Source of the DNA: an uncultured virus (IMG/VR IMGVR_UViG_2558309035_000001)
Taxonomy: Duplodnaviria > Heunggongvirae > Uroviricota > Caudoviricetes
Virus record (IMG/VR): IMGVR_UViG_2558309035_000001
DNA length: 64,000 nt
Direction: 5' to 3' (one strand)
In this document: one piece after another, positions 8,674-21,423 of the stretch
Numbering within the stretch: position 1 is the first letter of the stretch
Layout of the letters: every line of letters starts with the position of its first letter
Notes under the pieces: generated by a model
Databases searched by the model: none
What the model was told of the DNA's origin: nothing
What the model saw: the letters and a program-made list of their open reading frames with translations, nothing else
Program-made: the position numbers and the translations under genes

Positions 8674-8997
8674 ATGGAATTTGGGGAAAAAATGCGAGAA
8701 CTAATTGATAAAAAGGGACTTACACAAAAGGAGTTTGCCCATGAGATCAATATGAACTATGCTCATACGAACAAGTTCTTTACAGGTCGTACACCGAATA
8801 TGGAGTTCATATTAAAAGTGGTAAAACGTTTTCCTGAAATAGATTTGAATTGGTTGCTATTGCCACACGAGCATCGCAAAATAAATGATCGTGTCGCAGA
8901 GCAACCTGCCGATTACAATGCGTCTAAAGCCATGCAGTACATTACCGGAGTAGAAGAAAAACTAGAAGAATTAAAGAAATATTTGACACAAATTTGA
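8674..8997 (+). CDS. XRE-family CI-like phage repressor
   Basis: GLTQKEFAHEINM...GRTPNMEFILKV...IDLNWLL; divergent from the early operon and next to att. Confidence 0.85.
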   Translation: MEFGEKMRELIDKKGLTQKEFAHEINMNYAHTNKFFTGRTPNMEFILKVVKRFPEIDLNWLLLPHEHRKINDRVAEQPADYNASKAMQYITGVEEKLEELKKYLTQI

Positions 8998-9001
8998 CAC
9001 A
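8982..9001 (+). repeat. Phage integrase arm-type repeats (TTTGACACA x2)
   Basis: Two direct copies ~50 bp before the att core; matching pair at 20257-20277. Confidence 0.6.
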
Positions 9002-9052
9002 CAAATTTTATAACGCCATTGATTACTAACTCGTTACATTCTGAAAATAAAC

Positions 9053-9066
9053 CCTGTCGAGGTCAC
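9053..9066 (+). repeat. att core CCTGTCGAGGTCAC (3' end of tRNA-Arg); phage/satellite junction 1
   Basis: Exact 14-bp direct repeat of 20145-20158. Confidence 0.9.
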
Positions 9067-9073
9067 TAAAAAC

Positions 9074-9111
9074 AAAGGGGTTTACAAAGATTTATTTTGT
9101 AGCCCCTTTTT
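9074..9111 (+). terminator. Terminator-like hairpin right after the att core (satellite-supplied tRNA terminator)
   Basis: AAAGGGGTTTACAAA...TTTGTAGCCCCTTTTT. Confidence 0.6.
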
Positions 9112-9113
9112 CA

Positions 9114-9133
9114 TTTGCCCACTATTTACCCAT
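9114..9133 (+). repeat. Satellite integrase arm-type repeats (TTTGCCCAC, TTTACCCAT)
   Basis: Same motif occurs three times at 19967-19996 at the other end of the element. Confidence 0.65.
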
Positions 9134-9134
9134 T

Positions 9135-9707
9135 TTAAGTGGTTTTTACGGAATTTCTACCTGCTTTATTCCTCCTTACCCCCTCTATTAAAAGTTTTGC
9201 TCTTCCAATATATTGATCAACAGTAATTTTTTTTTCATTGTGCTCCTCCCAAATATCCCCATAACTCTCACTAAATTCATTCAACTTATCTTGAGATAAA
9301 TTATTAAGTTCCTCTGGGGTCATACCTAATAATATATAATCTACCTCAAATGGCATATAATAATCGGTTTCCGCTAAATTCTGGAATATTTGACTATAGC
9401 TATATACTTTATCTAGTTCTATGAGGTATTGTTTAAACTGTGCATCATGAAATCCAAGATTCTCTATAATACACTCAATAGCAGTATAAAAGATATCGGT
9501 TTTTATTCGTTGTGGTGATTCCAATTTTTCAATTGTTTTATTGATTGTGTCTGCTAAATCCACAAAGTTCAAAACCTCTAATGCAGATTTAAATTTTTCC
9601 TTTTGACCACCATACTTTAATCTATTAGTTTCCAATACCATATAATTATACGGGTTGTCGATGATTGTTTTAGCTACTTCAATTGATCTTGCTCCTGATA
9701 ATACCAT
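9135..9707 (-). CDS. Hypothetical protein (satellite cargo)
   Basis: 190-aa ORF, no motif recognised. Confidence 0.7.
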   Translation of the reverse strand: MVLSGARSIEVAKTIIDNPYNYMVLETNRLKYGGQKEKFKSALEVLNFVDLADTINKTIEKLESPQRIKTDIFYTAIECIIENLGFHDAQFKQYLIELDKVYSYSQIFQNLAETDYYMPFEVDYILLGMTPEELNNLSQDKLNEFSESYGDIWEEHNEKKITVDQYIGRAKLLIEGVRRNKAGRNSVKTT

Positions 9708-9727
9708 AATGTTTGATTTTTAAATTG

Positions 9728-10030
9728 TTATTTGATTCTTATTAAATTTTTCTTTTTAAATGTTTTGACTTGAATAAAGAAATTCTCGGCTTTCTCTTTG
9801 TATGACAATGAGCCATCGTTACCTACGGATTCAAATATGGATAAATATTCATCTTCTTTACCTTTTACGGTTCTTGGGTCAAATCCAAAAAGTATCTGTA
9901 TGTATGGATTTACATTTATATCAGAATCATTACTGGTCTTACAAATATTATTTATTTGTTCAGATACATAATACTGTCTAAATAATCCCGTCAACAATTC
10001 GATTTTTAAGTTTTTTTTGATTGCTTTCAT
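9728..10030 (-). CDS. Hypothetical protein (satellite cargo)
   Basis: 100-aa ORF co-oriented with 9135-9707. Confidence 0.6.
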   Translation of the reverse strand: MKAIKKNLKIELLTGLFRQYYVSEQINNICKTSNDSDINVNPYIQILFGFDPRTVKGKEDEYLSIFESVGNDGSLSYKEKAENFFIQVKTFKKKNLIRIK

Positions 10031-10219
10031 TTTAATTGATTTTTACTATTTGTTATTTGAATTTTTAATGTCCACTTAAATATTTTAAATATTATTTTGG
10101 GTTGTATTTCTGATTGTCTTTCCATCGCTTTATCCCAGATGTCTTCAAACTCTTCATTCGTGAAATATCCCCTGTTTAATATATCTTCCATACTTTAAAT
10201 GTTAATTATTTATTCAAAT

Positions 10220-10299
10220 ATACATTACAAGTATATTATATACAAATAAAAATATACTTTATTTGTATTTTTTAACATATTTATATACATTTGAAGTAT
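10220..10299. promoter_or_regulatory. Three ATAC-N7-GTAT palindromic operator-like sites
   Basis: At 10220-10234, 10254-10268 and 10285-10299, between the XRE gene and the divergent cargo genes. Confidence 0.55.
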
Positions 10300-10311
10300 T
10301 AAAGAGAAGAT

Positions 10312-10599
10312 ATGTTTAGGATTAAAGAGGTATTAAAAGAAAAGAATATGACGTCTATTGCACTTGCGGATGGTGTAGGTGTTGCCAGTAATACTATAGC
10401 ACGGATAAATAGCGGTGTAGCAAAACCAAGTATAGAACTATTAGAAAAGATTTCCGATACATTGGATGTTGATATTAGGGAACTGTTTAAGCCTGGTAAA
10501 GGTCATTCTTTACTTAATGGTTTTGTAGAGTATAAGAATACTATATACCGTATAGAAACAAAGGAGGATTTAGAAACCCTACTAAACAAGCTTAATTAA
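10312..10599 (+). CDS. XRE-family HTH transcriptional regulator
   Basis: RIKEVLKEKNMTSIALADGVGVASNTIARINSG...PSIELLEKISDTLDVDIRELF. Confidence 0.9.
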   Translation: MFRIKEVLKEKNMTSIALADGVGVASNTIARINSGVAKPSIELLEKISDTLDVDIRELFKPGKGHSLLNGFVEYKNTIYRIETKEDLETLLNKLN

Positions 10600-10738
10600 T
10601 ATGGAATCAGATAAGTTTCAAAAAAATATGATTTGGTTTATCTTCGGGATATGTGGATTGATGGTATTCATTACTAAATGTGAATGGGGTTAAAGTACAG
10701 GGCTGTACTATTATAGTTTGTATTACTCCTTTAATAAT

Positions 10739-11281
10739 TTATCTTCCCTTACCTTTTCCTTTTCCCTTACCTCTCCTTTGGTAACTAGATTTTACTGGGT
10801 TCTTTTTAGCTACTCTAATTTTATCTTCTTGTACGTAGTCAATTTGTTTAGTAGAAGGAATCCGAAATGTAAAACAAGATGTACCTTTAAAATTAGTGAA
10901 TGCAAAATCTCCTAAAGAAATAATATCCATACCAATTAACATCTCAGTATTACCAGATAGAATAGCTTCAACAACTTTAACACCTACAACATTTATTTTA
11001 TTAGGTAAATAAATATTTACAAGATAAGTATTAACTCTGTGTGAACCACCAGCGTGGTGAGAGGTAACTACTCCAGTTGGCTTTAACCCGAGCTCCTTTG
11101 CAACCTTAGCGGTAATGACTGTTCCTGTAGCACCAGTATCCCAGATTGCTTCATATTCTTTTAATACTAATGGATTAGCGGATCCGCCTCCTAAAGGAAC
11201 AGCATCTGAAACTCCACATTTTGTTTTCAGTACATTTATTCGGTGTGGTACTTTTAAAGTAAACGCTTTAATTTTAGTCAT
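10739..11281 (-). CDS. Retropepsin-like (clan AA) aspartyl protease with a basic C-terminal tail
   Basis: AIWDTGATGTVIT catalytic motif and LIGMDII. Confidence 0.85.
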   Translation of the reverse strand: MTKIKAFTLKVPHRINVLKTKCGVSDAVPLGGGSANPLVLKEYEAIWDTGATGTVITAKVAKELGLKPTGVVTSHHAGGSHRVNTYLVNIYLPNKINVVGVKVVEAILSGNTEMLIGMDIISLGDFAFTNFKGTSCFTFRIPSTKQIDYVQEDKIRVAKKNPVKSSYQRRGKGKGKGKGR

Positions 11282-11513
11282 TAATTACAACTCTAGAATG
11301 ATAAGTTTCAGTATAATCTTCATCTCCTGGGCTACATTTTTGAATTAAAAATGTACCAACCTCGTTACTTTTTCTAGATTCTGTAAGAGCTTCAATTTCT
11401 GAATTATAACTACCTAAAACTTCGTTACCTTTTATAACAATAAAACTACCTCCATAAGTTTCCAACAGAGCAGACTGATTGTCTAAGTAAAACTTAAATT
11501 CTTTTTCTAACAT
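11274..11513 (-). CDS. DUF5678-like small protein
   Basis: EFKFYLDNQSALLETYGGSFIVIKGNEVLGSY pattern; overlaps the protease start by 8 nt. Confidence 0.65.
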   Translation of the reverse strand: MLEKEFKFYLDNQSALLETYGGSFIVIKGNEVLGSYNSEIEALTESRKSNEVGTFLIQKCSPGDEDYTETYHSRVVIND

Positions 11514-11736
11514 AATTTATTTTTGCAATTATCAATTTACAAAAAGGGTTGCAAATCTACGAATTATTTACATATCAATGCTTTAACCAAATATAATACC
11601 AAATATTGTATTAATTAGATTAATTACCCATTTAGTAAGATAGATTTATTTTTATTTTATCAGCTCTCGAAAACGATAATAAAAAATTAAGGTTTTGTAA
11701 GCTATTTGTAAGCACGTAATGACACTAAAAAACTCC

Positions 11737-12270
11737 TTAACCCTGCTGCGTTACTTTCATTATACAATACCCATCATCATAAGAATATGTAATAAAGGGT
11801 TTGTATTTGGGTATATTACGATACACCTTCCACGCTTCATAGCTTGGATAATCACGTCTTCGACTACCTAAGTAGTTTCTATCGATCATCATAACAACAA
11901 GTGATCCGGGTAAGTTGTAATTTACTATTGGTAACGGAGCGGATAAATCAATAGTTCTGGTAACGTTATCTTGTAGATTATCGAATATTTCGTCGAAAAC
12001 CCTAACCATTTTCCAACCTCTTCCCCGTTCCGGTTCATTATCAAAATGTGTGTAATATTTCTTTGAAGGATTAATATGGCGATAACTCCAAGCAGCAACA
12101 ATTCTAAAACTTTGATAAATCCTATTGTCATTAAAGTGCATATCCTCCATTTCGGACATTCTAATATCTAATTTAATGCCCTTACTCGCATTCTTTAATT
12201 TGCCATTTGACAATACCTGTATTCCCGGCCCACCACCACCCTCGGTGTACAACTTCATTTCAACTTCCAT
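11737..12270 (-). CDS. Hypothetical protein (satellite cargo)
   Basis: 177-aa ORF, no family recognised. Confidence 0.55.
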   Translation of the reverse strand: MEVEMKLYTEGGGGPGIQVLSNGKLKNASKGIKLDIRMSEMEDMHFNDNRIYQSFRIVAAWSYRHINPSKKYYTHFDNEPERGRGWKMVRVFDEIFDNLQDNVTRTIDLSAPLPIVNYNLPGSLVVMMIDRNYLGSRRRDYPSYEAWKVYRNIPKYKPFITYSYDDGYCIMKVTQQG

Positions 12271-12306
12271 AATTTTATCTATTTATTAATTTTATACTTT
12301 TACCCA

Positions 12307-12516
12307 ATGGGTATATTTATCTTACTTTTAATTATAATTGGTTTTGGGGCATTTGGTTATTTTATACTCACTTCCATTTTTGATTTATTCATTGGTTCTA
12401 ATAAAGAACCCAAAACAAGCACCTACATAGATAACTCCGTTCACTATCATCAACATTTAACTATTGTTAAAAAAGATGAGACTATAACTGAAACTAGAAC
12501 AGAGATAAAGTATTAA
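12307..12516 (+). CDS. Small membrane protein
   Basis: N-terminal hydrophobic helix. Confidence 0.55.
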   Translation: MGIFILLLIIIGFGAFGYFILTSIFDLFIGSNKEPKTSTYIDNSVHYHQHLTIVKKDETITETRTEIKY

Positions 12517-12662
12517 TGATTATTGGAGATACAAGTCGCTAAATCACTTTTATTAATTTAATTATGTAAATTCTTTGAATTATAATTGAATTTACCGTTA
12601 CTGAAAACTATGTAAATAGAATAATCCCCACCGTATGGCAGGAATTATTCTTAGTATCCTAC

Positions 12663-12956
12663 TTAAAGCCCCATAGAATTAATTATCCTATCTAATTCTT
12701 CTGATGAAGGCTCTTTTTCAATGTCTGTCCTTGGTTGCTCTCCAACCATATTCAGGTATCTATTCTCGTGAATTTTAAATATATCCTCCAAATGATTGTG
12801 ATTATCAATTTTAACATCACTTAGGAACACCTCTTTTAAATGCTCTGGTATTTGACTATTGTTAAACATTTCATTGATTTTAGTCGTCATTGAGGAAATT
12901 TCAAACAGGCTAATATCAGTTCCTTTCAATTTTCTTGTAATACTTTCAATTTTCAT
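12663..12956 (-). CDS. Hypothetical protein (last gene of the satellite core operon)
   Basis: 97-aa ORF followed by a hairpin at ~12620-12650. Confidence 0.65.
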   Translation of the reverse strand: MKIESITRKLKGTDISLFEISSMTTKINEMFNNSQIPEHLKEVFLSDVKIDNHNHLEDIFKIHENRYLNMVGEQPRTDIEKEPSSEELDRIINSMGL

Positions 12957-12961
12957 AATTC

Positions 12962-13633
12962 TTATTTTTTAGTTAATTGCAAACTCCTTTGTAATTTATT
13001 TTCCACGTGATAAATACCCCTTGCGAATGGAACATACTTATATTCAGAATCAATATCCTTTCTTTCAGGTTTCACTATCAAGAATTTTTGTTCTACATTA
13101 GAATTACCATGCCAACTAACACCTTTTGGGGCACCTGGATGCAAATCACAATAATCAATAAAGTTCTTTTCATTCTCTTTTAAAATGTTGCAAATTTTCA
13201 GGGCAAAATCTAAAATTTCATTCTGCTTAACATTTTGTGTAAAGTATGTAAAATCGTTTTCTATGGACGCCTTACCTTGATTTGTCATAACTAAATCTGT
13301 TCCAGATAAAGACAATTCACTTCCATTAAATTGATTCACCATATTCTGCAAACTTCTTTCTAAAGAAGGGGGGTCTACTCCTAACAATCTATAATTTTCG
13401 GAATTCGACGCTTTAGGAAACGGAAACTTATTTTCTATAGTCTCTAGAAAATACTGGTAACCCCTACTTAAAAGTCTTTTTCTGACCTCATTAGAAGGTT
13501 TCTCGTCTAACATTCTTTCAGCTTTAACCAATACCGAAATAATAGATTTCTTCAAATCTTCATTTTTCCTGATTCTCGATTCAATACCATTGTAATCAAC
13601 CTCTATTATTCGAGGTGCAAATTTTTCACTCAT
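12962..13633 (-). CDS. Hypothetical protein (satellite)
   Basis: 223-aa ORF in the core operon. Confidence 0.7.
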   Translation of the reverse strand: MSEKFAPRIIEVDYNGIESRIRKNEDLKKSIISVLVKAERMLDEKPSNEVRKRLLSRGYQYFLETIENKFPFPKASNSENYRLLGVDPPSLERSLQNMVNQFNGSELSLSGTDLVMTNQGKASIENDFTYFTQNVKQNEILDFALKICNILKENEKNFIDYCDLHPGAPKGVSWHGNSNVEQKFLIVKPERKDIDSEYKYVPFARGIYHVENKLQRSLQLTKK

Positions 13634-13665
13634 ACTATTTATATTTAAAAATTAAACTCTATTTA

Positions 13666-13809
13666 CTATTCAAAAAAGTCCTCTATTTCCGCTGAAAACT
13701 TTCGCATTAAACTATTTCCTTGTTCAGTTCCCTGCTCTATTCCTAAACTATCGCAGTGCTTGACAAATTCATCGTATGTTTTAGGTACATACACTTCTCT
13801 ATTTTTCAT
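13666..13809 (-). CDS. 47-aa small protein not in the ORF track (MKNREVYVPKTYDEFVKHC...)
   Basis: ATG overlaps the upstream gene end and the ORF fills the intergenic gap. Confidence 0.5.
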   Translation of the reverse strand: MKNREVYVPKTYDEFVKHCDSLGIEQGTEQGNSLMRKFSAEIEDFFE

Positions 13810-14470
13810 TTTTAATGTTATTGGATATTAATTTTTCTATCTGTTCTATTGTTTCAAATGGCAATTGCTCAAACTCATCTTTAGATATCTTTAGATTGTT
13901 AATTTGTATGTAGTTATTTATGTTCGTAGATGGCTCTTTTTCGATACCTCCTGACAGCTCTATAAAGCTTTTTAATGCACTAGCGTTGTTATCTTTTACG
14001 CCTATTAAGTAAAGTTTAGATAATGCGTTAGCCGCCATGAATTTCAACTTACCTTTTAGGAGACTATTGAACTCGGATTTTAAACCATCTTTTAAATGCC
14101 TGTAGACTGTCATTCTGGAAAGCCCCAATTCTTTTATCACCAACGAACTAGGTGGAAAAGAGCCGTATTCCAAAATGTGGTTATGAATACATCTAGAAAT
14201 TAAATAATGATGCATTTCATACGTTGAATTCCTAAATCTCTCCAACTCTTCAACATCACCACCTATACTACAAACCTCAGCTATCATTTCACAAATGCGG
14301 TATTCTTTCCCGTCTTTGACCGTCATGCTGTGGTTATATTCTTTAATTAAATAACTCAAAAGATTCTTCCAGTCATTAGGTCTTTTTTCAAGATGTACAA
14401 TTACTTCCTTCTTTGTTGTAATCGTTTCAAATTCTGTAACACTTTGTAACGTTTTAGATTCTGCTTCCAT
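13799..14470 (-). CDS. HTH protein with a terminase-small-subunit-like C-terminus
   Basis: VIKELGLSRMTVYRHLK HTH followed by ALSKLYLIGVKDNNASALKSFIEL helices. Confidence 0.5.
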   Translation of the reverse strand: MEAESKTLQSVTEFETITTKKEVIVHLEKRPNDWKNLLSYLIKEYNHSMTVKDGKEYRICEMIAEVCSIGGDVEELERFRNSTYEMHHYLISRCIHNHILEYGSFPPSSLVIKELGLSRMTVYRHLKDGLKSEFNSLLKGKLKFMAANALSKLYLIGVKDNNASALKSFIELSGGIEKEPSTNINNYIQINNLKISKDEFEQLPFETIEQIEKLISNNIKNEK

Positions 14471-14829: not shown

Positions 14830-16068
14830 TCAATTATTTAAAATATCCTGATAAGTTTTTAGATCATCATAATAGGGTCTAATTACCTTTTCGTTTACAC
14901 CACTATTTAAAATATTCAGATAGCTTTTTATAGTCTTATCAGGTTCCGACCATACCACACCTTTAGATATCTCCACCGCAGCTAAGCCTTTTAAATCAAG
15001 CTTTGAGAAATATTCCGTTATACTGATAAGTTGCTTATCAAATTCAGACTTCTCAGCAACTACAGAAATTTGTTCAAATTCACTTTCATCAAATGTTGGG
15101 TCATACTTTATTATAGACGGTTGTTCCTGCTTTCTAAATTTTTCTAATGGAATATTGATTAAGAAGTCAGCTAAATCATAGCCGTTCAATCTCTGTTCTT
15201 CTGTAGCTTTTATTTCAAGAATCTTTGAAACTTCATATTTTGCACCAGGTTCTAAATCCGAAATTTTATTTAGCCAATTTTCATACTGCCCTAGGTCAGG
15301 GTATAAGGTTACATTACGCCCCTTCAACACCTTGGTCTTTTCATGATTTAGACCGTTTGCGTTACCCGCTGCCAACCAAACAAATTCATTGATATAGACA
15401 CTAGCGATTATTGCCGTTTTCTCGGATTCGACAATTGCAACCTTTTTGTCTGGGTATCGTTTCAATAAATGTTCGCCAAAGAAACATTGTACCAAATTGT
15501 AATTAGGATATTTACTTTTAGGAAAAGTGAAATAAACGTTTTGTTTTTTTCCCGTTAATGGGTCATAACCCATATTCTTTAATTGCCTGACATTGTTGTT
15601 TAAATCGACTTGAAAGAAGTCTACTCGGTTGTTATCCCTTTCACTTGTTCCTATTAAATACTCTTTCTTCAGTTGCTCCATCTGTTCCCTACCAAATAGC
15701 GATACCATGTATTTTAAAAAGTTATTTTCTCCTGTTCTTTTGAAACTTTCTGACAGTATTTCCCTATCTAAATTAGTGGTGGGTAATTGCTTATTATATC
15801 GGTTTAAGAGGGGTGTTATAGGTTTAACGTTTTGAACCGATAAATTCGGAGTTTGCCCAAACCTATCAAACCTTTGTAAGTATTCTTTTGGCGTCAAATG
15901 ATAACCGCATTTTTCTAACCTGTTGCATATACCTACATTATCGTTAACGTATTCACTAACCTCAATGTTTACGTACCTTGTGAATTGATTAGCCTTATTA
16001 CAACTAGGGCAATGATATCTGCTTTTGCTGCTTTTATACGGTTCCAAAATGTATTTATAATCTTTCAT
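14830..16068 (-). CDS. DUF6371/TOPRIM primase-like replication protein with an N-terminal zinc finger
   Basis: CPSC...CNRLEKCGYH; QCFFGEHLL, AIVESEKTA, VTLYPD, DLADF. Confidence 0.85.
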   Translation of the reverse strand: MKDYKYILEPYKSSKSRYHCPSCNKANQFTRYVNIEVSEYVNDNVGICNRLEKCGYHLTPKEYLQRFDRFGQTPNLSVQNVKPITPLLNRYNKQLPTTNLDREILSESFKRTGENNFLKYMVSLFGREQMEQLKKEYLIGTSERDNNRVDFFQVDLNNNVRQLKNMGYDPLTGKKQNVYFTFPKSKYPNYNLVQCFFGEHLLKRYPDKKVAIVESEKTAIIASVYINEFVWLAAGNANGLNHEKTKVLKGRNVTLYPDLGQYENWLNKISDLEPGAKYEVSKILEIKATEEQRLNGYDLADFLINIPLEKFRKQEQPSIIKYDPTFDESEFEQISVVAEKSEFDKQLISITEYFSKLDLKGLAAVEISKGVVWSEPDKTIKSYLNILNSGVNEKVIRPYYDDLKTYQDILNN

Positions 16069-16077: not shown

Positions 16078-16165
16078 GGTTCAATAGGTTCAAACCTTAT
16101 TTTAAACTTATAAACGCCCTTAGGTTCATCGGTTTAACCGCCTATATAGTAGGCGGTATTAAACC
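16078..16165. repeat. Putative satellite origin: GGTTCA repeats plus hairpin ACCGCCTA-N5-TAGGCGGT
   Basis: Intergenic between the helicase and primase genes. Confidence 0.45.
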
Positions 16166-17304
16166 TATAGGATATCACTAGTATATTTACCTAATGTATA
16201 TGGCTTCCTTTCTGCATCTTGAACTACCCAACCTTCGTTTTTACATTGATCTACTAACTTCTTTGATTTAGCATCTGATAACTCCTTTTCTATTTGCCTT
16301 TTATGCTCTGTCTGTAAAGCAATCCAAAGCTCTTTATAGGTGTAGCTTAATTTCTTTGAGAAAATGGATGTAAGGAGCTGAAACTTCTTAAAATCATCTA
16401 GCTCTATACTATTACCACCTCTTTTATTTGATGCTGTTCTAACTTCCCAGTTTTCTGCTAGTATTGGAAGCCCTTCTTCGTTAATCTCAAAAGCAAATGG
16501 TTCAGGTTCTCTATCCCTACAGTATTCAGCTTCTACAATCGATATATCTTTGTTCTGGGGGCTTTTAGTTACTGATAAAGTAGTTTCTGCCTTATTGACT
16601 AATTCAGCCCCTAAATGCCCTCTAGCGTTATTATCGTTTTTATTTTGATGTAGCACAACCACGATATGAATATTTAACTCTTCAGTCCATTTGAGTAAAA
16701 GACTGGTCATATTACTGGCTTGGTCTTCATCATTAATAGAGGTTACCAGATCTCTTATCCCATCTATAACAACTAAACCTAAATTTGGTGAGTTGTAAAT
16801 TTTTTGTTCAATCATTTTAACCCTGTCTATGGCTTTAAACTTTCTTAACCCATAAGCTTTAAAGTTGTTTGGGTTTGAAGTGTTTGAAAGTTTACATATT
16901 CTATTTACAGTTTTTTGTAGGTGATACTTACCCTGTTCCGTATCGAATAATATTGCTTCGTTCTTACCTTTTTTAGCTGTTCCTTTTATTGTTTCCAATA
17001 TTTCAGAATTAGTAATGAATGAAGCTAATTTTGAACCAATTAGAAAAGTTTTTCTACTTTTTGCCTTACCAATCAATAAACTAAAGTTTCCAAGTGTAGC
17101 AATAACAGAAGGTGTTCCATTAGATATTATCTGAAGACAGTTTTCAGGTGGTGGTAATTGTTCTAATGGATTTATTAAAACAGTTTCAAGATCAACCATT
17201 AATGAATTTGAAACATCACCTTCTATAGTTATTACCTCGTCTAATATATCTGCTAAAACTAAATCTGAGGATTGTTTTAATTCTGTATTTATTGTATCTT
17301 GCAT
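16165..17304 (-). CDS. AAA_25/RepA-like helicase (P-loop ATPase)
   Basis: Walker A GKAKSRKT, FDTEQ, VVIDGIRDL, LHQNK...RGHLG. Confidence 0.85.
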   Translation of the reverse strand: MQDTINTELKQSSDLVLADILDEVITIEGDVSNSLMVDLETVLINPLEQLPPPENCLQIISNGTPSVIATLGNFSLLIGKAKSRKTFLIGSKLASFITNSEILETIKGTAKKGKNEAILFDTEQGKYHLQKTVNRICKLSNTSNPNNFKAYGLRKFKAIDRVKMIEQKIYNSPNLGLVVIDGIRDLVTSINDEDQASNMTSLLLKWTEELNIHIVVVLHQNKNDNNARGHLGAELVNKAETTLSVTKSPQNKDISIVEAEYCRDREPEPFAFEINEEGLPILAENWEVRTASNKRGGNSIELDDFKKFQLLTSIFSKKLSYTYKELWIALQTEHKRQIEKELSDAKSKKLVDQCKNEGWVVQDAERKPYTLGKYTSDIL

Positions 17305-17363: not shown

Positions 17364-17705
17364 TTATGCTGTTCTTATAGATTTTCGGGAAAGTAAATTG
17401 TCAGTTTCCTGTTGTATATGCTTTTCGGAATTACTGTTGCCTGACTTTATCCATTCAAGGAGTTCTGATTTAAAAAAATATAACCTACCATTCTTTTTAT
17501 GACATGGTATCAATCCTTTACGAGCTTTTTTATATAAGCTATCCTTACTTTCCTTTAAATAAGAACATGCTTCATCAATCTCTATAGGTTGTTCTATTTC
17601 ATCTTTAGATAGATTGGTAAAAGAAAATTTTTCTAAAAAAAGATCTAATTTTTTATTTAATTCTAACACCATTCTAGGTGTTTGCTCAAGTGTGGGTGTT
17701 TCCAT
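17364..17705 (-). CDS. Excisionase-like HTH_17 DNA-binding protein
   Basis: IDEACSYLKESKDSLYKKARKGLIPCHKKNGRLYFFKSELLEWI. Confidence 0.85.
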   Translation of the reverse strand: METPTLEQTPRMVLELNKKLDLFLEKFSFTNLSKDEIEQPIEIDEACSYLKESKDSLYKKARKGLIPCHKKNGRLYFFKSELLEWIKSGNSNSEKHIQQETDNLLSRKSIRTA

Positions 17706-17781: not shown

Positions 17782-18690
17782 TTAATTATCCAAAATAAAA
17801 GTCTCAATAATACTTAAAGCTGAATCTACTTCCTTAGTACTAAATTCTTTATAAACTAGCAGTTCCTTAGTATTTCTGTAAATTTTCCTTAAAGCAAAAA
17901 TTTGCTTTCTATTTTTAGAATTACATAATGTGGATACATTATTATAATAGTCTTCATATTCCTTATAGTATTCTAAAAATTTTTGTGTAGAATTATTTTT
18001 TGAAACTTTTAATTTTTTTTGTGCATTACCTCTAGTTACCTTTTCGTTTATAAACAAATAGTATAGAGCAAGTGACCTTCCCTCTGCATCATAAATAGGA
18101 TCTAACTCATTTACGACATCAGTTAACTCTTCATCATAAGCACTACTTAACCCTACAGTAGATTCATCAAGTTCAATTTTTAAAAATTCCTTTATAAAAT
18201 CATTAGCATATCCTTTCAAATCTAGGTAGTTACTTTCCCATTTATAAGAATTATCATGTTTAAGTTTTAAGTATTTATTTGCTATTATTTGACCTTTAAT
18301 AAAATAGATATCATCATCATTAATAAATTGATGAAGTAAAACGCTAGTTAGCCTATCCGATTTAATTTTCCGAACTCTATCAGTCAGGTGTCCAGAAAAA
18401 ACCTTAGCATACCTTTCCATACTACCTAATTCTTTATAATCGTTTTCAAAAACAGATTCTTTAAACGTTTTTACCATTACACTTAATGTTGCTAAAGAAT
18501 TCATAATATCTAATAAAACTATATGAGAAGGTTTAGAGAATTTTTTACACTCCGTTATGTATTCCTGATATAAATAATTTCTTAGCTCCTTATCGTTTTG
18601 AAACAATTCGATGTAAGGAATTTCATCAACTCCAATCCTATTCTTTCTATTTTCGTACAATTGACTGAGAAAAGTTCGTTGTAATTCCAT
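17782..18690 (-). CDS. Hypothetical protein downstream of the satellite integrase
   Basis: 302-aa ORF starting 2 nt after the integrase stop. Confidence 0.7.
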   Translation of the reverse strand: MELQRTFLSQLYENRKNRIGVDEIPYIELFQNDKELRNYLYQEYITECKKFSKPSHIVLLDIMNSLATLSVMVKTFKESVFENDYKELGSMERYAKVFSGHLTDRVRKIKSDRLTSVLLHQFINDDDIYFIKGQIIANKYLKLKHDNSYKWESNYLDLKGYANDFIKEFLKIELDESTVGLSSAYDEELTDVVNELDPIYDAEGRSLALYYLFINEKVTRGNAQKKLKVSKNNSTQKFLEYYKEYEDYYNNVSTLCNSKNRKQIFALRKIYRNTKELLVYKEFSTKEVDSALSIIETFILDN

Positions 18691-18692
18691 TT

Positions 18693-19949
18693 TTAAAAAT
18701 CCATTAATTTATCTGCAAATTCTTTCTTTGTTTTATCCTCAAAACCATCAAAATAGTTTTGTGTTACCGAAATATCAGAATGATTTAAAGCTTCGCTAAC
18801 GAACTCTATAGATGCCCCCATATTAATCATATTGGTGGCATAGCTATGTCTAGCCCAATAGCTCGAAAACTCTTTAGGGAACTCATATTCCTTAGCAATA
18901 TTTTTTAGTTGTTGGTTAATAGCTCTAGTAAAGTTTTTGACCTTTGTATAAATGACTTCGGCAGAATCACCATCATCAAGAATTGGAAAAACATAAGATT
19001 GTTCACCTCTATACTCAGTTTTGTATTTCTCAAGTATTCTCTTTGTAACCTTATTTAATTGAAAGGATATTTTCTTTTTATTCGTTCTCTTCTTTATCTT
19101 AGTTTTCTCCCTATAGTATGAAATTTCATCATCTTTTAGGTTCTCATATTTCAACATAGCAATATCTTTAAAATTCATACCGCTGCATCCATAACTAAAG
19201 AACCAGTAGTCTCTAGCCCTATCCTGTAGTTGTGGCAACTTAGAATGATACAATAGTGTTACTTGTTCCCTACTTAAAGTTTTCTTTACCTTTTTTTCTT
19301 CAGGAATTTCATATTTCTTTCTACCAAAAGGATAATACTTTTTATCCAAATCATTATCGGTTATAGCATTGTTAAAAATGACCCTAAGAGTACGAGTATA
19401 GATTGCCACGGTGGTTAAACTTCTACCTTTATCATCTATCATAAAACTTTCATAGTCCTCAAGCCATTTAGGAGTAATCTCTAAAAATGATAGGGTATTT
19501 TTACTAACCTTAGTTCTTTGGGCTTCATATTTTAAAAGAGATTTTAATGCAGCGTTATAGCTCTCAGCTGCTCCTATTCTTTCTTTACTTCTAAACTCGT
19601 CTACGGTTTTGTTGAAGTGATAAATAACACTTGTTTTATCTGAACTTTTTCTAAGTAGTTTTTGTTCAAAGTTTTCAAAATCAAAATATTCTAAAGATTC
19701 GGCTGCTTCCTCTGCTCTTTTCAATAAATATGATAATTGCTCATAATCTTTTTTAGCAACTCCTTTCAACTTATGAGAACCAATATTAGAGTTCCATGCA
19801 GATTCAAATCTAATTTCACTCATATTAAGCCCTGTGGTGATTCTCTTTGCTTTTTTAAGTTCATTAGACCATATTCTAACCTTTACTGGATAAGTACCGT
19901 CCTTTAGCTTTCTACGCTTATCCTGTACTATGGTTATTTTGCTATTCAT
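18693..19949 (-). CDS. int: Tyrosine integrase of the satellite (Arm-DNA-binding, SAM-like and catalytic domains)
   Basis: N-terminal DGTYPVKVRI arm domain; GMNFKDI, YWARHSYAT, LNHSDISVTQNY. Confidence 0.93.
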   Translation of the reverse strand: MNSKITIVQDKRRKLKDGTYPVKVRIWSNELKKAKRITTGLNMSEIRFESAWNSNIGSHKLKGVAKKDYEQLSYLLKRAEEAAESLEYFDFENFEQKLLRKSSDKTSVIYHFNKTVDEFRSKERIGAAESYNAALKSLLKYEAQRTKVSKNTLSFLEITPKWLEDYESFMIDDKGRSLTTVAIYTRTLRVIFNNAITDNDLDKKYYPFGRKKYEIPEEKKVKKTLSREQVTLLYHSKLPQLQDRARDYWFFSYGCSGMNFKDIAMLKYENLKDDEISYYREKTKIKKRTNKKKISFQLNKVTKRILEKYKTEYRGEQSYVFPILDDGDSAEVIYTKVKNFTRAINQQLKNIAKEYEFPKEFSSYWARHSYATNMINMGASIEFVSEALNHSDISVTQNYFDGFEDKTKKEFADKLMDF

Positions 19950-19966
19950 TTATCATTAAAATTACA

Positions 19967-19996
19967 TTTGCCCACAATTTACCCACATTTACCCAC
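19967..19996 (+). repeat. Satellite integrase arm-type repeats (TTTGCCCAC, TTTACCCAC x2)
   Basis: Three direct repeats at 10-11-bp spacing between the int start and the att core. Confidence 0.65.
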
Positions 19997-20110
19997 AAAA
20001 TGAAATATTATTAACTACTATTAACCAGATGTTATTAACATATATACTTGAATAACAGCCGTAATTTATAATAATATCTAATATTAAATATATTTGAATC
20101 TAAGGTATCC

Positions 20111-20158
20111 CTTGATTACGGCTCAAGAGGTTACAGGTTTGAATCCTGTCGAGGTCAC
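20111..20158 (+). tRNA. 3' fragment of tRNA-Arg(ACG) forming an att site (not a complete tRNA)
   Basis: Anticodon arm CTTGA-TTACGGC-TCAAG, T arm ACAGG-TTTGAAT-CCTGT, acceptor 3' strand CGAGGTC-A; no D arm or 5' acceptor strand upstream. Confidence 0.85.
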
Positions 20159-20180
20159 AAAAATCTATTGTATAATAGTT

Positions 20181-20230
20181 AAAGGCGTGTGCAACAGTTA
20201 ACTAACTGGTATCACACGCCTTTATTTTTT
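20181..20230 (+). terminator. Terminator-like hairpin after the att core (phage-supplied tRNA terminator)
   Basis: AAAGGCGTGTG...CACACGCCTTT followed by a T-rich tract. Confidence 0.65.
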
Positions 20231-20235
20231 CTATT

Positions 20236-21423
20236 ATGAGCCACTTTTCGACGAGTTTTGACACAGAATTGGACACAAAAAAAATCTTTGTGACAATCAA
20301 AACCAAATTTATCCTTAGGGATTACGTAAACCAAAGCGGTAAAAGTCCGCTATATATGTTCATTAGCTCCCCTGGAGACCGCAAAAGACCTAAAACAGAG
20401 CTTGAATTCTACCCTAAAGACTGGGACCAGAAAACTGAACGGGTAAAATCTACCGCTCATAATTCCGAGACCTATAATCTTATTCTTGAAAATTTAGAAG
20501 CCAAGGTTTCTAAAATTAAAACGGTGTACTTACTAAATGAAAAACCGCTGACAGCCACAAAACTTGCAGAAGAACTAAAAGAGACCACCGAACGTGTAGA
20601 TTTCAAGATATTCTTTAAAAAACAACTAGCGAAAGAAGCTAAATTATATAGCAAAGGCTATTTGAAACGGATGAATACGGTTCTTAATAAACTTCAGAAG
20701 TACCCCCATGAGATAATGTTCTCTGATATTACTCCTGAATTCGAAAACAAGTACAGAATATATCTGGCATCGAAAGGAAATATTTCGACAACCGTTAACT
20801 CGAATCTAGCAACAATTAAAAAGTTTCTCTTAAAAGCCCAGAAAGCAGGTATTAAATTACCAATAGAAGCTACAGATGTTAAAGTTGGTAGAACCCACGG
20901 CAACCGCATGGACCTAAAACCGCATGAGCTTGAGCGATTTTACAAGTATTATTTTTCTGAATTCATCACAGATGAATGGAAATTGATACTCGGTTACTTT
21001 TTATTTTCATGCTTTACCAGTATTAGATGGGGCAATATCATGGATTTAAAACGGCAAGATATTATCGAGCATCGCTTTGTTCGCTTTCACGTAAGCAAAA
21101 CGAACAATTTACAGACAATTATCATAAATGAAAAGGCACTCAATATTGTTTCTCACCATCCTCAATTGTTCGTGAATGAAATAAGTGATGTTCATATGAA
21201 CCGAGAAATCAAAAAAATTGCCAAACATTTAGGCTATAACCATAAGATAAGCTTCCATGTTGCCCGACATACTTTTGCTACCAATTTTATTCGCATGAAG
21301 GGCGGTTTAATGAAGCTCAAAGAAATTATGGGGCATTCAGATATAAAGACCACCATGATCTACGTACATATTGTAGAACAAGAAGCCAATGAAGACATGG
21401 CTTTGATGGATAAACTATTTTAG
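20236..21423 (+). CDS. int: Phage tyrosine integrase (true start may be GTG at 20290, after the arm repeats)
   Basis: Arm domain GKSPLY; FSCFTSIRWGNI, SFHVARHTFAT, MGHSDIKTTMIY. Confidence 0.93.
   Translation: MSHFSTSFDTELDTKKIFVTIKTKFILRDYVNQSGKSPLYMFISSPGDRKRPKTELEFYPKDWDQKTERVKSTAHNSETYNLILENLEAKVSKIKTVYLLNEKPLTATKLAEELKETTERVDFKIFFKKQLAKEAKLYSKGYLKRMNTVLNKLQKYPHEIMFSDITPEFENKYRIYLASKGNISTTVNSNLATIKKFLLKAQKAGIKLPIEATDVKVGRTHGNRMDLKPHELERFYKYYFSEFITDEWKLILGYFLFSCFTSIRWGNIMDLKRQDIIEHRFVRFHVSKTNNLQTIIINEKALNIVSHHPQLFVNEISDVHMNREIKKIAKHLGYNHKISFHVARHTFATNFIRMKGGLMKLKEIMGHSDIKTTMIYVHIVEQEANEDMALMDKLF

What the first reader, a model, noticed from the sequence alone, without database searches (positions are those of the whole stretch)
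8982..20277. Phage-satellite cointegrate joined at tRNA-Arg(ACG) att sites, with two independent att architectures visible
Seen: the 14-bp core CCTGTCGAGGTCAC occurs at 9053 and 20145. The second copy ends a 48-nt tRNA-Arg 3' fragment that has no 5' half. Outside the cores lie TTTGACACA-type repeats (8982-9001, 20257-20277) next to the phage repressor and integrase. Inside lie TTT[G/A]CCCAC repeats (9114-9133, 19967-19996) belonging to the second integrase. Each core is followed by its own terminator hairpin. No host genes are present. Inference: the chromosome carries tRNA-phage-satellite in tandem, and recombination between the outermost sites released both as one 58.8-kb circle. The satellite would then ride in cis on its putative helper and replicate with it.
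Basis: partly seen in the sequence, partly recalled or inferred. Interest (0 to 1): 0.85.

Follow-up and report, generated by a model that had tools for sequence, protein, structure and literature searches.

The report
Temperate phage fused to integrative island
A 47.7-kb temperate phage of marine Flavobacteriaceae and an 11.1-kb self-replicating integrative island that both target the same arginine tRNA gene are joined into one 58.8-kb circle; the join is real, but composites of this general kind have already been described.

Summary
The window is about 1.09 copies of a 58.8-kb unit. It consists of a 47.7-kb Duneviridae-like temperate phage with an 11,092-bp island inserted exactly in its attP.

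Both parts also exist alone. The phage occurs as a solo prophage beside tRNA-Arg in three sequencing runs. A 96.5-98.6% identical island (78% of its length aligned) sits alone in a chromosomal tRNA-Arg(ACG) on a metagenome contig. A k-mer contig from run X1 crosses the island-int / tRNA-fragment / phage-int junction without a mismatch, though X1 may be the window's own sample.

The two integrase families use different parts of the tRNA:
- Island type: 45-48 nt identity blocks that start in the anticodon stem.
- Phage type: 14-22 nt at the 3' end.

The phage-side junction keeps only the 14-bp block. It was therefore made by a crossover in the phage core against a tRNA 3' end followed by island DNA.

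Two routes stay open: direct fusion of two circles by phage Int, or a chromosomal tandem excised through its outer sites. Satellite and helper status is unproven; I found no packaging genes, shared signals or relaxase.

Published precedents are HE-PICI composites and phage-ICE tandems. I rate this a new variant of a known kind, of moderate interest.

The parts
1..5184 (.). First copy of the terminal overlap. It matches 58809-64000 and lies in the phage replication region.
   Evidence: Self-BLAST gives 99.85% identity; the differences shown are single-base homopolymer deletions in this copy. This indicates a circular or concatemeric long-read contig with a 58,808-bp unit.
7739..8299 (-). Phage transcriptional regulator (phrog_10300). 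It has the same position as the LuxR-family regulator of the cultured phage FPSV-D15.
8674..8997 (+). Phage XRE/CI-like helix-turn-helix regulator, the last phage gene before attP.
   Evidence: Pfam HTH_3 and PHROG repressor families. FPSV-D15 has an XRE gene at the same place.
8982..9001 (+). Phage arm-type repeat pair, TTTGACACA x2, on the left arm of phage attP.
   Evidence: All 4 window matches to TTKGACACA flank the cores. FPSV-D15 has similar words at the same place.
9012..9052 (+). Phage-left spacer with a weak likeness to the 34-nt 5' part of the tRNA fragment; possibly a decayed tRNA remnant.
   Evidence: Local alignment score 9, reached by 20 of 2000 shuffles and 132 of 5000 random phage windows. 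It stays with the phage in solo prophages: the X10 contig covers 8478-9066 with 1 difference.
9053..9066 (+). Core copy 1. This is the junction of phage-left and island-right.
   Evidence: Contigs of runs X10, X3 and X2 follow the phage up to 9066-9068 and then diverge into other DNA.
9074..9109 (+). Hairpin plus U-run supplied by the island. It serves as terminator of the tRNA when the island is integrated.
   Evidence: Fold of -15.3 kcal/mol, z -4.1. The identical sequence follows the full tRNA in L032.
9114..9132 (+). Island arm-type repeat pair (TTTGCCCA, TTTACCCA).
   Evidence: The same words follow the tRNA in L029, L030, L031 and L032.
9135..14807 (-). Variable and accessory part of the island. 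It holds unknown ORFs of 190, 100, 177, 97, 223, 223 and 98 aa, a retropepsin-like aspartyl protease (10739-11281) and an XRE HTH gene (10312-10599, + strand).
   Evidence: Part of it (10570-12547) is replaced by other genes in the near-identical island L032.
14830..16068 (-). Zn_ribbon_16 + DUF6371 + DUF6965 protein, a presumed primase-like replication protein of the island. The function is inferred from its position and its zinc ribbon, not tested.
   Evidence: Pfam E-values 2.9e-49 and 2.5e-23. It is always paired with the AAA_25 gene in L033, L034, L035 and L040.
16165..17304 (-). AAA_25 (RepA/DnaB-like) ATPase of the island.
   Evidence: It is 100% identical to the protein in L032.
17364..17705 (-). 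HTH_17, an excisionase/AlpA-like protein.
   Evidence: Pfam, PHROG phrog_66 and NCBIfam 'excise' domain. Conserved in L029-L031.
17782..18690 (-). Unknown 302-aa protein directly downstream of the island integrase.
   Evidence: No family found. A gene of variable sequence occupies this slot in all relatives.
18693..19949 (-). Island tyrosine integrase (Phage_int_SAM_5 + Phage_integrase).
   Evidence: It is 61-74% identical to integrases of islands at tRNA-Arg(ACG) in three Flavobacteriaceae genomes. It matches the phage integrase at only 35% over 74 aa.
19967..19995 (+). Island arm-type repeat triplet upstream of the island integrase.
   Evidence: The same triplet is present in L001, L002, L003 and L032.
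20111..20158 (+). 48-nt 3' fragment of tRNA-Arg(ACG), carried by the island. Core copy 2 lies at 20145-20158. This is the junction of island-left and phage-right.
   Evidence: The X1 contig covers 20051-20584 with 0 differences. In X3 the tRNA 5' half precedes 20111.
20180..20224 (+). Hairpin plus U-run supplied by the phage. It serves as terminator of the tRNA in the prophage state.
   Evidence: Fold of -24.3 kcal/mol, z -5.7. A hairpin stands at the same place in 11 related loci and in FPSV-D15.
20257..20277 (+). Phage arm-type repeat pair (TTTGACACA, TTGGACACA) at the start of the integrase gene.
   Evidence: The five closest relatives of the phage integrase carry TTGACAC-type pairs here, and more distant relatives carry other paired words.
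20236..21423 (+). Phage tyrosine integrase (Arm-DNA-bind_5 + SAM_5 + catalytic domain).
   Evidence: It is 70% identical to the integrase of a 47.4-kb provirus and 33-42% identical to integrases of cultured Flavobacterium and Cellulophaga phages.
21415..58808 (-). Remainder of the phage. It includes the tape measure protein (25869-29681), an S49 prohead protease (48200-49081), depolymerase-like tail genes, and the replication module that continues at 1-8580.

Best explanation
**What it is.** The window is a circular or concatemeric 58.8-kb composite of two independent mobile elements of marine Flavobacteriaceae.
- The first is a 47.7-kb Duneviridae-like temperate siphophage. Its attP holds a 14-bp copy of the 3' end of tRNA-Arg(ACG) between TTGACACA arm sites.
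- The second is an 11.1-kb integrative island with its own integrase, an excisionase-like protein and an AAA_25 plus Zn-ribbon/DUF6371 replication module. Its attP holds a 48-nt copy of the tRNA 3' part between TTTRCCCA arm sites.

**What the sequence shows.** The island lies exactly in the phage attP. The phage-left junction switches from phage DNA to island DNA inside the 14-bp block. So the phage recombined in its own core with a tRNA 3' end that was followed by island DNA.

**What is inferred.**
- The enzyme was the phage integrase. The island integrase most likely crosses over in the anticodon loop, as the 5' limit of its 45-48-nt block suggests. A crossover there would have put the intact tRNA segment at the other junction.
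- The simplest route is one canonical attP x attB reaction. Phage Int used the tRNA copy on the excised, replicating island circle as a surrogate attB and fused the two circles.
- The composite then replicates as one molecule. Phage Int plus its excision factor should be able to resolve it.
- At 123% of the phage length it probably cannot be packaged whole in an unmodified capsid.
For: **Insertion at attP**
- In the cultured relative FPSV-D15 (47,249 bp), the XRE gene and int are 156 bp apart. That gap holds arm repeats, a 17-nt tRNA-Arg 3' end, a hairpin, then more arm repeats. In the window the same two genes are 11.2 kb apart.
- The phage part is collinear with a 47,403-bp provirus that shows no match to the island.

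**Each part exists alone**
- In runs X10, X3 and X2, contigs follow the phage to 9066-9068 and then diverge. They resume at 20111, preceded in X3 by the tRNA 5' half.
- L032 carries the island between a full tRNA-Arg(ACG) and the 48-nt fragment. It matches at 96.5-98.6% over 8,634 of 11,092 nt.

**The junction is real**
- An X1 contig of 534 nt covers 20051-20584 with 0 differences. No tRNA 5'-half loose end is listed for X1.

**The two integrases use different sublocations**
- Island-type blocks are 45-48 nt and start 0-3 nt before GATTACGG in L029, L030, L031, L032 and the window.
- Phage-type blocks are 14 nt (window), 17 nt (FPSV-D15), and 15, 17, 19 and 22 nt in 4 of 4 chromosomal prophages examined.
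- In 11 of 12 loci with a relative of the phage int, a full tRNA-Arg lies directly upstream.

**Separate origin**
- GC is 31.0% in the island and 38.3% in the phage. Every 11-kb window of the phage lies between 35.9% and 40.1%.

**Background from papers**
- The sublocation concept (anticodon loop, T-loop, asymmetric 3' end): passages of bioRxiv 10.1101/2020.11.02.365908.
Against: - The route cannot be read from the product. A chromosomal tandem followed by outer-site excision gives the identical circle. Such tandem excision, dependent on the phage integrase, has been shown for phage-ICE tandems (PMC13651849, section 6 read).
- The island integrase's crossover point is inferred only from the length of the identity block. 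No pair of copies differs inside the block, so nothing maps it directly.
- Only the right junction is covered by an independent contig. X1 has no cover at 8602-9135, and X1 may be the window's own sample.
- No free phage attP or free island attP joint was seen in any run (table 5).
- Nothing shows that the composite is packaged, transmitted, or more than a rare by-product.
Confidence: 0.5

Rival explanations
1. Phage and island sit in tandem at the chromosomal tRNA-Arg(ACG), in the order tRNA, phage, core, island, tRNA fragment, or in the reverse order. Recombination between the outermost tRNA-derived sites then releases both as one circle. The agent could be an integrase acting on a half-canonical pair of sites, or homologous recombination between the 48-nt repeats.
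For: - The product is identical to the observed circle (sequence logic).
- Composite excision of tandems is experimentally documented. Phage-ICE tandems excise as a unit in about 9-10% of excision events and need the phage integrase (PMC13651849, abstract and section 6).
- VGJphi-CTXphi hybrids arise from tandem prophages (PMC4246890, passages).
- An HE-PICI composite excises and replicates whole (PMC10111431, section 16).
- L045 shows a second natural junction: another element's arm repeats, then a tRNA-Arg fragment, then a phage-type int.
Against: - No chromosomal tandem of these two elements was seen. In 11 of 12 genomic loci the phage-type int follows a full tRNA, not a fragment.
- L032 and the three genome islands are solo.
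- In either order, neither integrase has both of its canonical partner sites at the outer ends. This is inference from the arm-site positions.
Confidence: 0.35
2. The island's own integrase inserted the island into the phage, using the phage attP core as a surrogate attB. This would be a satellite actively embedding itself in its helper.
For: - The phage attP carries 14 bp identical to the island's attP.
- Further left it has a weak tRNA-like stretch that includes TTGATTAC from the anticodon stem and loop.
- Satellites that integrate into helper prophages are known (PMC10111431, abstract).
Against: - A crossover in the anticodon loop would leave the intact tRNA segment at the left junction and the degenerate one at the right. 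The sequence shows the opposite.
- This rival survives only if the island integrase exchanges strands in the last 14 bp. That would leave the strict conservation of the other 34 nt in the window island and the 4 related island loci (L029-L032) unexplained.
Confidence: 0.07
3. The composite is an assembly chimera. A phage circle and an island circle, or a chromosomal array, were wrongly joined at the shared tRNA-derived repeat.
For: - The two elements share a repeat at both junctions.
- The contig shows long-read-type homopolymer errors.
- Only one of the two junctions has an independent contig.
Against: - The shared repeat is 14 bp at one junction and 48 nt at the other, far shorter than long reads.
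- A 31-mer-based contig of X1 runs unbranched from island-specific sequence through the 48-nt fragment into the phage int (20051-20584, 0 differences).
- X1 also holds island and phage pieces at 100% identity (12 of 12 laid contigs at 99% or above).
Confidence: 0.05
4. The composite is real, but the island is not a phage satellite. It belongs to a Bacteroidota family of integrative, self-replicating islands, some mobilizable by conjugation and many carrying defence genes. Its linkage to this phage is then an accident of sharing one tRNA target, not a helper relationship.
For: - The backbone int, unknown gene, HTH_17, AAA_25, Zn_ribbon_16/DUF6371 recurs in L033, L034, L035 and L040. L040 adds NikA/MobC and a MobA/VirD2 relaxase. 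L035 adds T5orf172, a DEAD helicase and an MmeI-type R-M enzyme.
- Islands with the same integrase and att module carry a reverse transcriptase, T5orf172/DUF4041 and SRAP.
- No terminase, capsid or scaffold family was found in the window island.
- No exact word of 18 nt or more is shared with the phage, and no shared protein beyond the integrase catalytic domain.
Against: - The window island has no detectable relaxase.
- Its size and layout (integration zone, replication zone, variable zone) fit satellites. These features are listed for satellites in PMC9618062 and PMC10111431 (passages and abstract read).
- Distant relatives of its integrase (25-29% identity) lie on 4-12-kb records deposited as 'Bacteriophage sp.' from human faecal samples.
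- Physical linkage to a complete phage is what a cis-hitchhiking satellite would show.
Confidence: 0.5

Closest known systems
Helper-embedded PICIs (HE-PICI; Tommasini, Mageeney & Williams 2023, PMC10111431; abstract and section 16 read)
   Same: An island of about 11 kb with an integrase, an AlpA-like protein and a replication zone sits inside a temperate phage of about 50 kb. The 61-kb composite excises and replicates as one circle. The sizes nearly match those here (58.8 = 47.7 + 11.1 kb).
   Different: HE-PICIs interrupt late genes of enterobacterial lambda-like prophages through one dedicated integrase clade, and the helper relationship is supported. Here the island lies in the intergenic attP, the sites derive from a tRNA, the host is a Flavobacteriaceae bacterium, and helper dependence is untested.
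[quoted passage not shown] 2026, PMC13651849; abstract and section 6 read)
   Same: A prophage and a second integrative element accrete at one site and can excise and circularise as a composite. The phage integrase drives tandem excision.
   Different: The partner there is a conjugative element of tens of kb in Streptococcus, and transfer is by conjugation. Here the partner is a small island without conjugation or relaxase genes, and the composite was found as a free circular or concatemeric contig.
VGJphi-CTXphi hybrid phages from tandem prophages at dif1 (review PMC4246890, passages of section 10 read)
   Same: Two elements integrated in tandem at one attachment site are released as one hybrid genome.
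   Different: Those are filamentous phages that use host XerCD. The hybrid is known to be packaged, and a filament has no capsid size limit.
Prophage plus P4-type island tandems at one tRNA gene
   Same: Two integrases use different parts of one tRNA gene, so an island's tRNA fragment becomes a second landing site and arrays form.
   Different: Those are chromosomal arrays. Here the array is closed on itself without any host DNA.
Duneviridae (Unahavirus) temperate Flavobacterium phages such as FPSV-D15 and 6H (GenBank MK764437 annotation)
   Same: The gene order around attP and the attP architecture are the same, and proteins are 41-51% identical.
   Different: Cultured members are 39-47 kb and carry nothing between the XRE gene and int.
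Marine virion-encapsidated integrative mobile elements (VEIMEs; Eppley et al. 2022, PMC9618062; passages read)
   Same: These are small integrase- and primase-bearing islands of marine bacteria, Flavobacteria included, whose helper phages are unknown.
   Different: VEIMEs were defined by being found as concatemers inside virus particles. That was not tested here. No cointegrate with a phage is mentioned in the main text: the terms 'cointegrat' and 'chimer' occur 0 times. The supplements were not looked at.
NBU-type integrative mobilizable elements of Bacteroides (recalled, not read here)
   Same: They have a tyrosine integrase of the SAM_5 type, a short core at a tRNA 3' end, excision proteins and a primase gene.
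   Different: NBU elements carry a relaxase and an oriT. The window island has no detectable relaxase.

Membership tests
Phage satellite (P4-like / PICI / VEIME sense) | Own integrase and attachment site, and found integrated on its own in host chromosomes | tested here: met
   The island integrase has arm sites at both ends. A 96.5-98.6% identical copy sits solo in tRNA-Arg(ACG) on L032, and relatives sit in 3 genomes.
Phage satellite (P4-like / PICI / VEIME sense) | Own replication module and no full set of virion genes | tested here: met
   It has AAA_25 and Zn_ribbon_16/DUF6371 genes. No structural family was found in 14-15 ORFs scanned against Pfam, PHROGs and NCBIfam. That the module replicates DNA is inferred.
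Phage satellite (P4-like / PICI / VEIME sense) | Means of hijacking packaging: terS, a cos/pac copy or capsid-remodelling genes | tested here: not met
   No such family was found. The longest exact word shared with the phage is 17 nt, about the chance level. No protein is shared except the integrase catalytic domain. Nine island ORFs (190, 100, 79, 177, 97, 223, 223, 98 and 302 aa) remain unknown, so this is a failure to find, not proof of absence.
Phage satellite (P4-like / PICI / VEIME sense) | Helper-dependent induction and encapsidation | not testable with these tools
   This needs particle DNA or induction experiments.
Helper-embedded PICI | Integration inside a helper prophage late gene by the HE-PICI integrase clade | tested here: not met
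   The insertion lies in the intergenic attP between the XRE gene and int. Integrase clade membership was not tested.
Site-specific accretion tandem / composite element | Two elements, each with its own integrase, are joined head to tail at copies of one attachment sequence | tested here: met
   There are two integrases, two arm-site families, and direct repeats of the core at both junctions.
Site-specific accretion tandem / composite element | The composite exists as an excised circle | tested here: inconclusive
   The 5.2-kb terminal overlap and the absence of host DNA support a circle or concatemer. Only one junction was confirmed by an independent contig, from a run that may be the source sample.
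NBU-type integrative mobilizable element | Relaxase (Mob) and oriT | tested here: not met
   Pfam finds no relaxase. BLASTP against the relaxase and the NikA-like protein of L040 finds nothing. oriT was not searched.
Duneviridae-like temperate flavophage (the phage part) | Shared gene order and protein similarity with cultured members | tested here: met
   The 708-aa protein is 44-51% identical and the integrase 33-42%. The attP neighbourhood is the same. Formal taxonomic assignment was not attempted.
tRNA 3'-end (asymmetric) sublocation integrases (the phage int) | A short identity block confined to the 3' end of the tRNA, with the full tRNA kept next to int | tested here: met
   Blocks measure 14, 15, 17, 17, 19 and 22 nt. 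The tRNA lies directly upstream of int in 11 of 12 loci. The strand-exchange point itself was not mapped.
Anticodon-loop sublocation integrases (the island int) | An identity block running from the anticodon stem-loop to the tRNA 3' end | tested here: met
   Blocks of 45-48 nt start 0-3 nt before GATTACGG in the window island and in L029-L032 (4 related island loci). The exchange point is inferred, not mapped.

The most novel reading that the evidence does not exclude
The island's attP, because it carries a complete copy of the tRNA 3' part, works as a decoy attB for any phage that integrates at that tRNA's 3' end. Capturing an incoming or induced phage genome onto the replicating island would have one of two effects. 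It could give the island a ride in cis and the phage a plasmid-like lysogenic state maintained by the island's replicon. Or it could trap the phage in a 123%-length genome that cannot be packaged whole, which would be a defence by fusion. Either way, this would be the first physically linked candidate island-phage pair in Bacteroidota.
Probability: 0.12. Interest if true: 0.7.

Novelty: new variant of a known kind. Interest (0 to 1): 0.45.

Why it matters
- **A candidate pair to test.** Helper phages of the many small integrative islands of marine bacteria are unknown (stated in PMC9618062, Conclusions passages). A molecule that physically links one such island to a complete temperate phage names a concrete pair for testing in Flavobacteriaceae.
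- **A general consequence of tRNA-restoring attP sites.** An island that restores the tRNA with a long 3' copy automatically carries a landing site for phages that use the tRNA's 3' end. Island and phage can therefore fuse without the chromosome.
- **Expected effects.** If such fusions are frequent, they would affect phage packaging, island spread and the reading of 'oversized' viral contigs in long-read viromes.
- **Limits.** Composite excision of a phage with a second element is already published, so the conceptual gain is limited.

Tried and rejected
**Searches that found nothing**
- The window's own genome is not held.
- Nucleotide searches of the phage part (megablast) and the island (blastn) against 50,697 phage records gave no match.
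- IMG/VR scans with the island integrase and with the primase-like protein found no relative.
- The exact 48-nt phage-left-plus-core word has 0 matches in IMG/VR. A free phage attP of this very phage was therefore not found there.
- Earlier notes of this scan hold nothing on this genome or on the island integrase.
- Rfam gives nothing at gathering score. The weak hits at the junctions, other than the sub-threshold tRNA, are chance-level.

**Island ORFs that stayed unexplained**
- PADLOC gave only generic HTH hits.
- Sequence searches against the PDB gave nothing below E = 0.08 for 6 ORFs.
- The Atlas search for the 190-aa ORF gave only low-TM helical-repeat look-alikes.
- AlphaFold of the 190-aa ORF without an alignment gave pLDDT 45.7, too poor to search with.

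**Technical failures**
- The simple terminator scan found neither hairpin, so I folded them directly.
- A first script to find tRNAs by regular expression failed; I replaced it with ARAGORN.

**Limits of the read laying**
- X1 has no contig over 8602-9135, so the left junction is unconfirmed.
- The near-absence of island cover in X2, X3 and X10, and the absence of a 9066-to-20159 joint, come from contigs only. They are not evidence of absence.
- Short high-depth pieces of X3 at 17506-18458 are 20-30-nt matches and were ignored.

**Rejected reading**
- The phage-left spacer as a clear tRNA remnant: the likeness is weak (p about 0.01-0.03).

**Seen but not followed**
- L053, a 63.7-kb provirus with an internal tRNA.
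- L046/L047, two tRNA-part copies 1.5 kb apart.

Full report
**1.

- The 14-bp word CCTGTCGAGGTCAC occurs exactly twice, at 9053 and 20145. None of 100 shuffles had a match.
- The second copy ends a 48-nt stretch (20111-20158) identical to the 3' part of a tRNA-Arg(ACG) gene, from the anticodon stem onward. The full gene is seen in locus L032.
- The window holds no complete tRNA (ARAGORN; Rfam at gathering score). Rfam gives only a sub-threshold tRNA hit at 20096-20157.
- TTKGACACA occurs four times, all as two tandem pairs at 8982/8993 and 20257/20269.
- TTTRCCCA forms a pair at 9114/9125 and a triplet at 19967/19978/19988.
- Both cores are followed by a strong hairpin and a U-run. The energies are -15.3 and -24.3 kcal/mol, and 0 of 200 shuffles fold as well in either case.

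**2. The molecule closes on itself**

- Window 1-5184 repeats 58809-64000 at 99.85% identity; the differences shown are all single-base homopolymer deletions in the first copy.
- This is the signature of a long-read contig that runs more than once round a circle or concatemer.
- The unit is 58,808 bp, the island is 11,092 bp core to core, and the phage is 47,716 bp.
- No whole genome is held for the window.

**3. The large part is a complete temperate phage**

- It has a tape measure protein, an S49 prohead protease, a DnaG-type primase and many PHROG families of flavobacterial phages.
- A 708-aa protein is 44-51% identical to proteins of Flavobacterium phages laban6-1, 23T, 2A and 6H.
- The integrase is 33-42% identical to integrases of cultured Flavobacterium and Cellulophaga phages of 39-47 kb.
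- A 47,403-bp IMG/VR provirus, 97% complete by CheckV, is collinear with window 20257 through the wrap to 8209 at about 68% nucleotide identity. It has no match to 9067-20144.
- The cultured phage FPSV-D15 (Duneviridae, 47,249 bp) has this order: LuxR-like regulator, hypothetical gene, XRE regulator, a 156-bp gap, integrase.
- That gap holds arm-like repeats, a 17-nt tRNA-Arg 3' end, a hairpin, and TTGACAC repeats.
- This is the window's phage with 9067-20144 removed. The island is therefore an insertion in the phage attP.

**4. The small part is an independent integrative island**

- From right to left it encodes a tyrosine integrase, a 302-aa unknown protein, an HTH_17 excisionase-like protein, an AAA_25 ATPase and a Zn_ribbon_16/DUF6371/DUF6965 protein.
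- A variable region follows, with a retropepsin-like protease and an XRE regulator.
- Its GC content is 31.0% against 38.3% for the phage.
- A JGI metagenome contig (L032, 12,828 bp) carries the same island at 96.5-98.6% identity over 8,634 of 11,092 nt.
  - The island there lies between a full tRNA-Arg(ACG) and the 48-nt fragment.
  - The same hairpin and the same arm repeats are present.
  - Host DNA lies outside, and part of the cargo is exchanged.
- Integrase relatives (61-74% identity) mark islands of 8.4, 16.0 and 17.5 kb. Each is bounded in the same way, in three Flavobacteriaceae genomes (Croceivirga, Arenibacter and an uncultured member). Only int and the HTH_17 gene are conserved among them.

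**5. The two integrase families use different parts of the tRNA**

- Island-type identity blocks are 45-48 nt. They start 0-3 nt before GATTACGG, inside the anticodon stem, in all five copies.
- Phage-type blocks are short:
  - 14 nt in the window;
  - 17 nt in FPSV-D15;
  - 15, 17, 19 and 22 nt in 4 of 4 chromosomal prophages whose far ends I fetched, 37-43.5 kb from the tRNA.
- In 11 of 12 Flavobacteriaceae loci with a relative of the phage integrase, a full tRNA-Arg (ACG 7, TCG 2, TCT 2) lies about 95 nt upstream of int. The twelfth locus has only 191 nt upstream.
- The tandem repeats before int change with the integrase clade, as arm sites should.
- Block lengths of these two kinds are what is expected for an anticodon-loop sublocation and the asymmetric 3'-end sublocation (passages of bioRxiv 10.1101/2020.11.02.365908).
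- The exchange points themselves were not mapped here.

**6. What the junctions say**

- Write the tRNA 3' part as A (34 nt) plus B (14 nt).
- The left junction reads phage-left, a degenerate A-like spacer, B, island-right.
- The right junction reads island-left, intact A, B, phage-right.
- The switch from phage to island DNA therefore lies inside B.
- A crossover in the anticodon loop would have put intact A at the left junction and the degenerate spacer at the right. The sequence shows the opposite.
- So whatever the route, the phage recombined in its own 14-bp core with a tRNA 3' end that was followed by island DNA. This step is read directly from the sequence.
- That phage Int did it is an inference. 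So is the view that the island Int exchanges at the anticodon loop.
- The degenerate spacer's likeness to A is weak: score 9, reached by 20 of 2000 shuffles.
- The spacer belongs to the phage, because solo prophages carry it (X10 contig 8478-9066, 1 difference).

**7. Evidence from sequencing runs**

- All four runs laid are Logan contigs.
- X1 is a very small run. All 12 of its laid contigs are at least 99% identical to the window.
  - It holds island pieces, phage pieces and a 534-nt contig over 20051-20584 with no difference.
  - That contig runs from island-specific sequence through the fragment and core into the phage integrase.
  - No tRNA 5'-half loose end is listed for X1.
  - X1 may be the window's own sample, so this supports the reads behind the junction, not an independent occurrence.
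  - X1 has no contig over the left junction.
- In X10, X3 and X2, contigs follow a close phage relative up to 9066-9068 and then diverge.
- They pick up again at 20111. In X3 the tRNA 5' half precedes that position.
- These are solo prophages at tRNA-Arg without the island.

**8. Route**

- *Direct fusion.* One canonical reaction, phage attP by a surrogate attB on the excised island circle, gives both junctions at once.
- *Tandem routes.* The chromosomal orders tRNA-phage-island-fragment, or the reverse, give the same circle.
  - In both, the outer pair of sites is canonical for neither integrase. This follows from the arm-site positions.
  - Composite excision of such tandems is nevertheless documented for phage-ICE tandems, at about 9-10% of excision events and dependent on the phage integrase (PMC13651849, section 6).
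  - It is also documented for VGJphi-CTXphi hybrids (PMC4246890).
- I rate the direct route slightly higher, and I cannot decide between them from the product.
- A second natural junction of this type lies at the end of IMG/VR contig L045. It reads another element's arm repeats, a 46-nt tRNA-Arg fragment without its 5' half, then a phage-type integrase.

**9. Satellite or not**

- The island has the integration and replication zones and the size of known satellites.
- I found no terminase, capsid or scaffold family.
- No exact word of 18 nt or more is shared with the phage, and no shared protein beyond 35% identity over 74 aa of the integrases.
- The same backbone occurs with defence genes (L035: T5orf172, DEAD helicase, MmeI-type enzyme). 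In 1 of 4 context loci it occurs with NikA/MobC and a relaxase (L040).
- The window island has no detectable relaxase.
- Helper dependence is therefore open.
- At 58.8 kb the composite exceeds all listed relatives (39-47 kb). I infer that an unmodified capsid could not hold a full copy. This was not tested.

**10. Comparison and verdict**

- The closest precedents are:
  - HE-PICI composites, a 61-kb composite of a 50-kb helper and an 11-kb satellite that excises and replicates whole (PMC10111431);
  - phage-ICE accretion tandems.
- What differs here:
  - the island sits in the phage attP itself;
  - the two partners use two sublocations of one tRNA;
  - the host is a marine Flavobacteriaceae bacterium;
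  - the composite was caught as a closed molecule.
- My literature searches turned up no report of a phage fused to a satellite-like island at attP. Those searches cover only the held library, and I read no supplements.
- I rate it a real, well-supported composite and a new variant of a known kind, with moderate interest.

Noticed in passing
window 1-5184 versus 58809-64000: The first copy of the overlap carries single-base homopolymer deletions. They break reading frames there; for example, the primase gene reads 4042-4281 plus 4281-7250 in copy one but runs on as one frame from 62857 in copy two. X1 contigs also differ from the window by 1-nt indels at 13863, 21755 and 22809. The window therefore still has a few consensus errors.
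   Followed up: partly
L045 2250-2706 (IMG/VR contig end): A second example of the junction type. Tandem TTTGCAGAAA repeats of some other element are followed by a 46-nt tRNA-Arg(ACG) fragment without a 5' half, a hairpin, and a phage-type integrase (33% identical) with its own AACTACGCG repeats.
   Followed up: partly
L048 2250-2800 (13.8-kb IMG/VR contig): This looks like the attP of yet another small element. It has a 45-nt tRNA-Arg(ACG) fragment flanked on both sides by CGACAAGGTA-type repeats. tRNA-Arg(ACG) seems to be an integration hot spot for several integrase types in Flavobacteriaceae.
   Followed up: no
window 9012-9052: The phage-left spacer shares TTGATTAC, CTC, GTTACA and TGAA, in order, with the 34-nt 5' part of the tRNA fragment. 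It may be a decayed tRNA copy left from an ancestor with a longer identity block. The likeness is statistically weak.
   Followed up: partly
window 10739-11281 (-): The island encodes a retropepsin-like aspartyl protease (Asp_protease_2, E = 2e-9), preceded by a 79-aa ORF. In the near-identical island L032 this region is replaced by other genes, including a HicA-toxin-like ORF.
   Followed up: no
window 37805-39508 (+): A small cluster on the opposite strand to the rest of the phage. It has positive AT skew and holds an ArdC-N-like ORF and a short N6-methylase-domain ORF (214 aa). It looks like a moron or anti-restriction module.
   Followed up: no
window 50929-52644 and 54258-55151 (-): These phage genes carry SASA (sialate O-acetylesterase-like) plus F5/8 type C domains, and a polysaccharide lyase domain. 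They are probably receptor-degrading tail proteins.
   Followed up: no
window 58427-58457 and 43148-43225: A 31-bp near-perfect palindrome lies in an ORF-poor stretch, and a 35-bp tandem duplication lies inside a gene. Both turned up in the self-BLAST. Their role is unknown.
   Followed up: no
L035 6246-12102; L031 653-2377; L030 1585-3033: Islands with the same backbone or the same integrase carry defence-type cargo. L035 has an MmeI-type R-M enzyme, a DEAD helicase and T5orf172. L031 has a reverse transcriptase. L030 has DUF4041/T5orf172. L029 and L031 also carry SRAP.
   Followed up: no
phage records MT836474, MT836212, MT838459 and others: The nearest phage-database relatives of the island integrase (25-29% identity) lie on 4-12-kb 'Bacteriophage sp.' records from human faecal samples. 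These may be small Bacteroidota islands recovered with virus particles.
   Followed up: no
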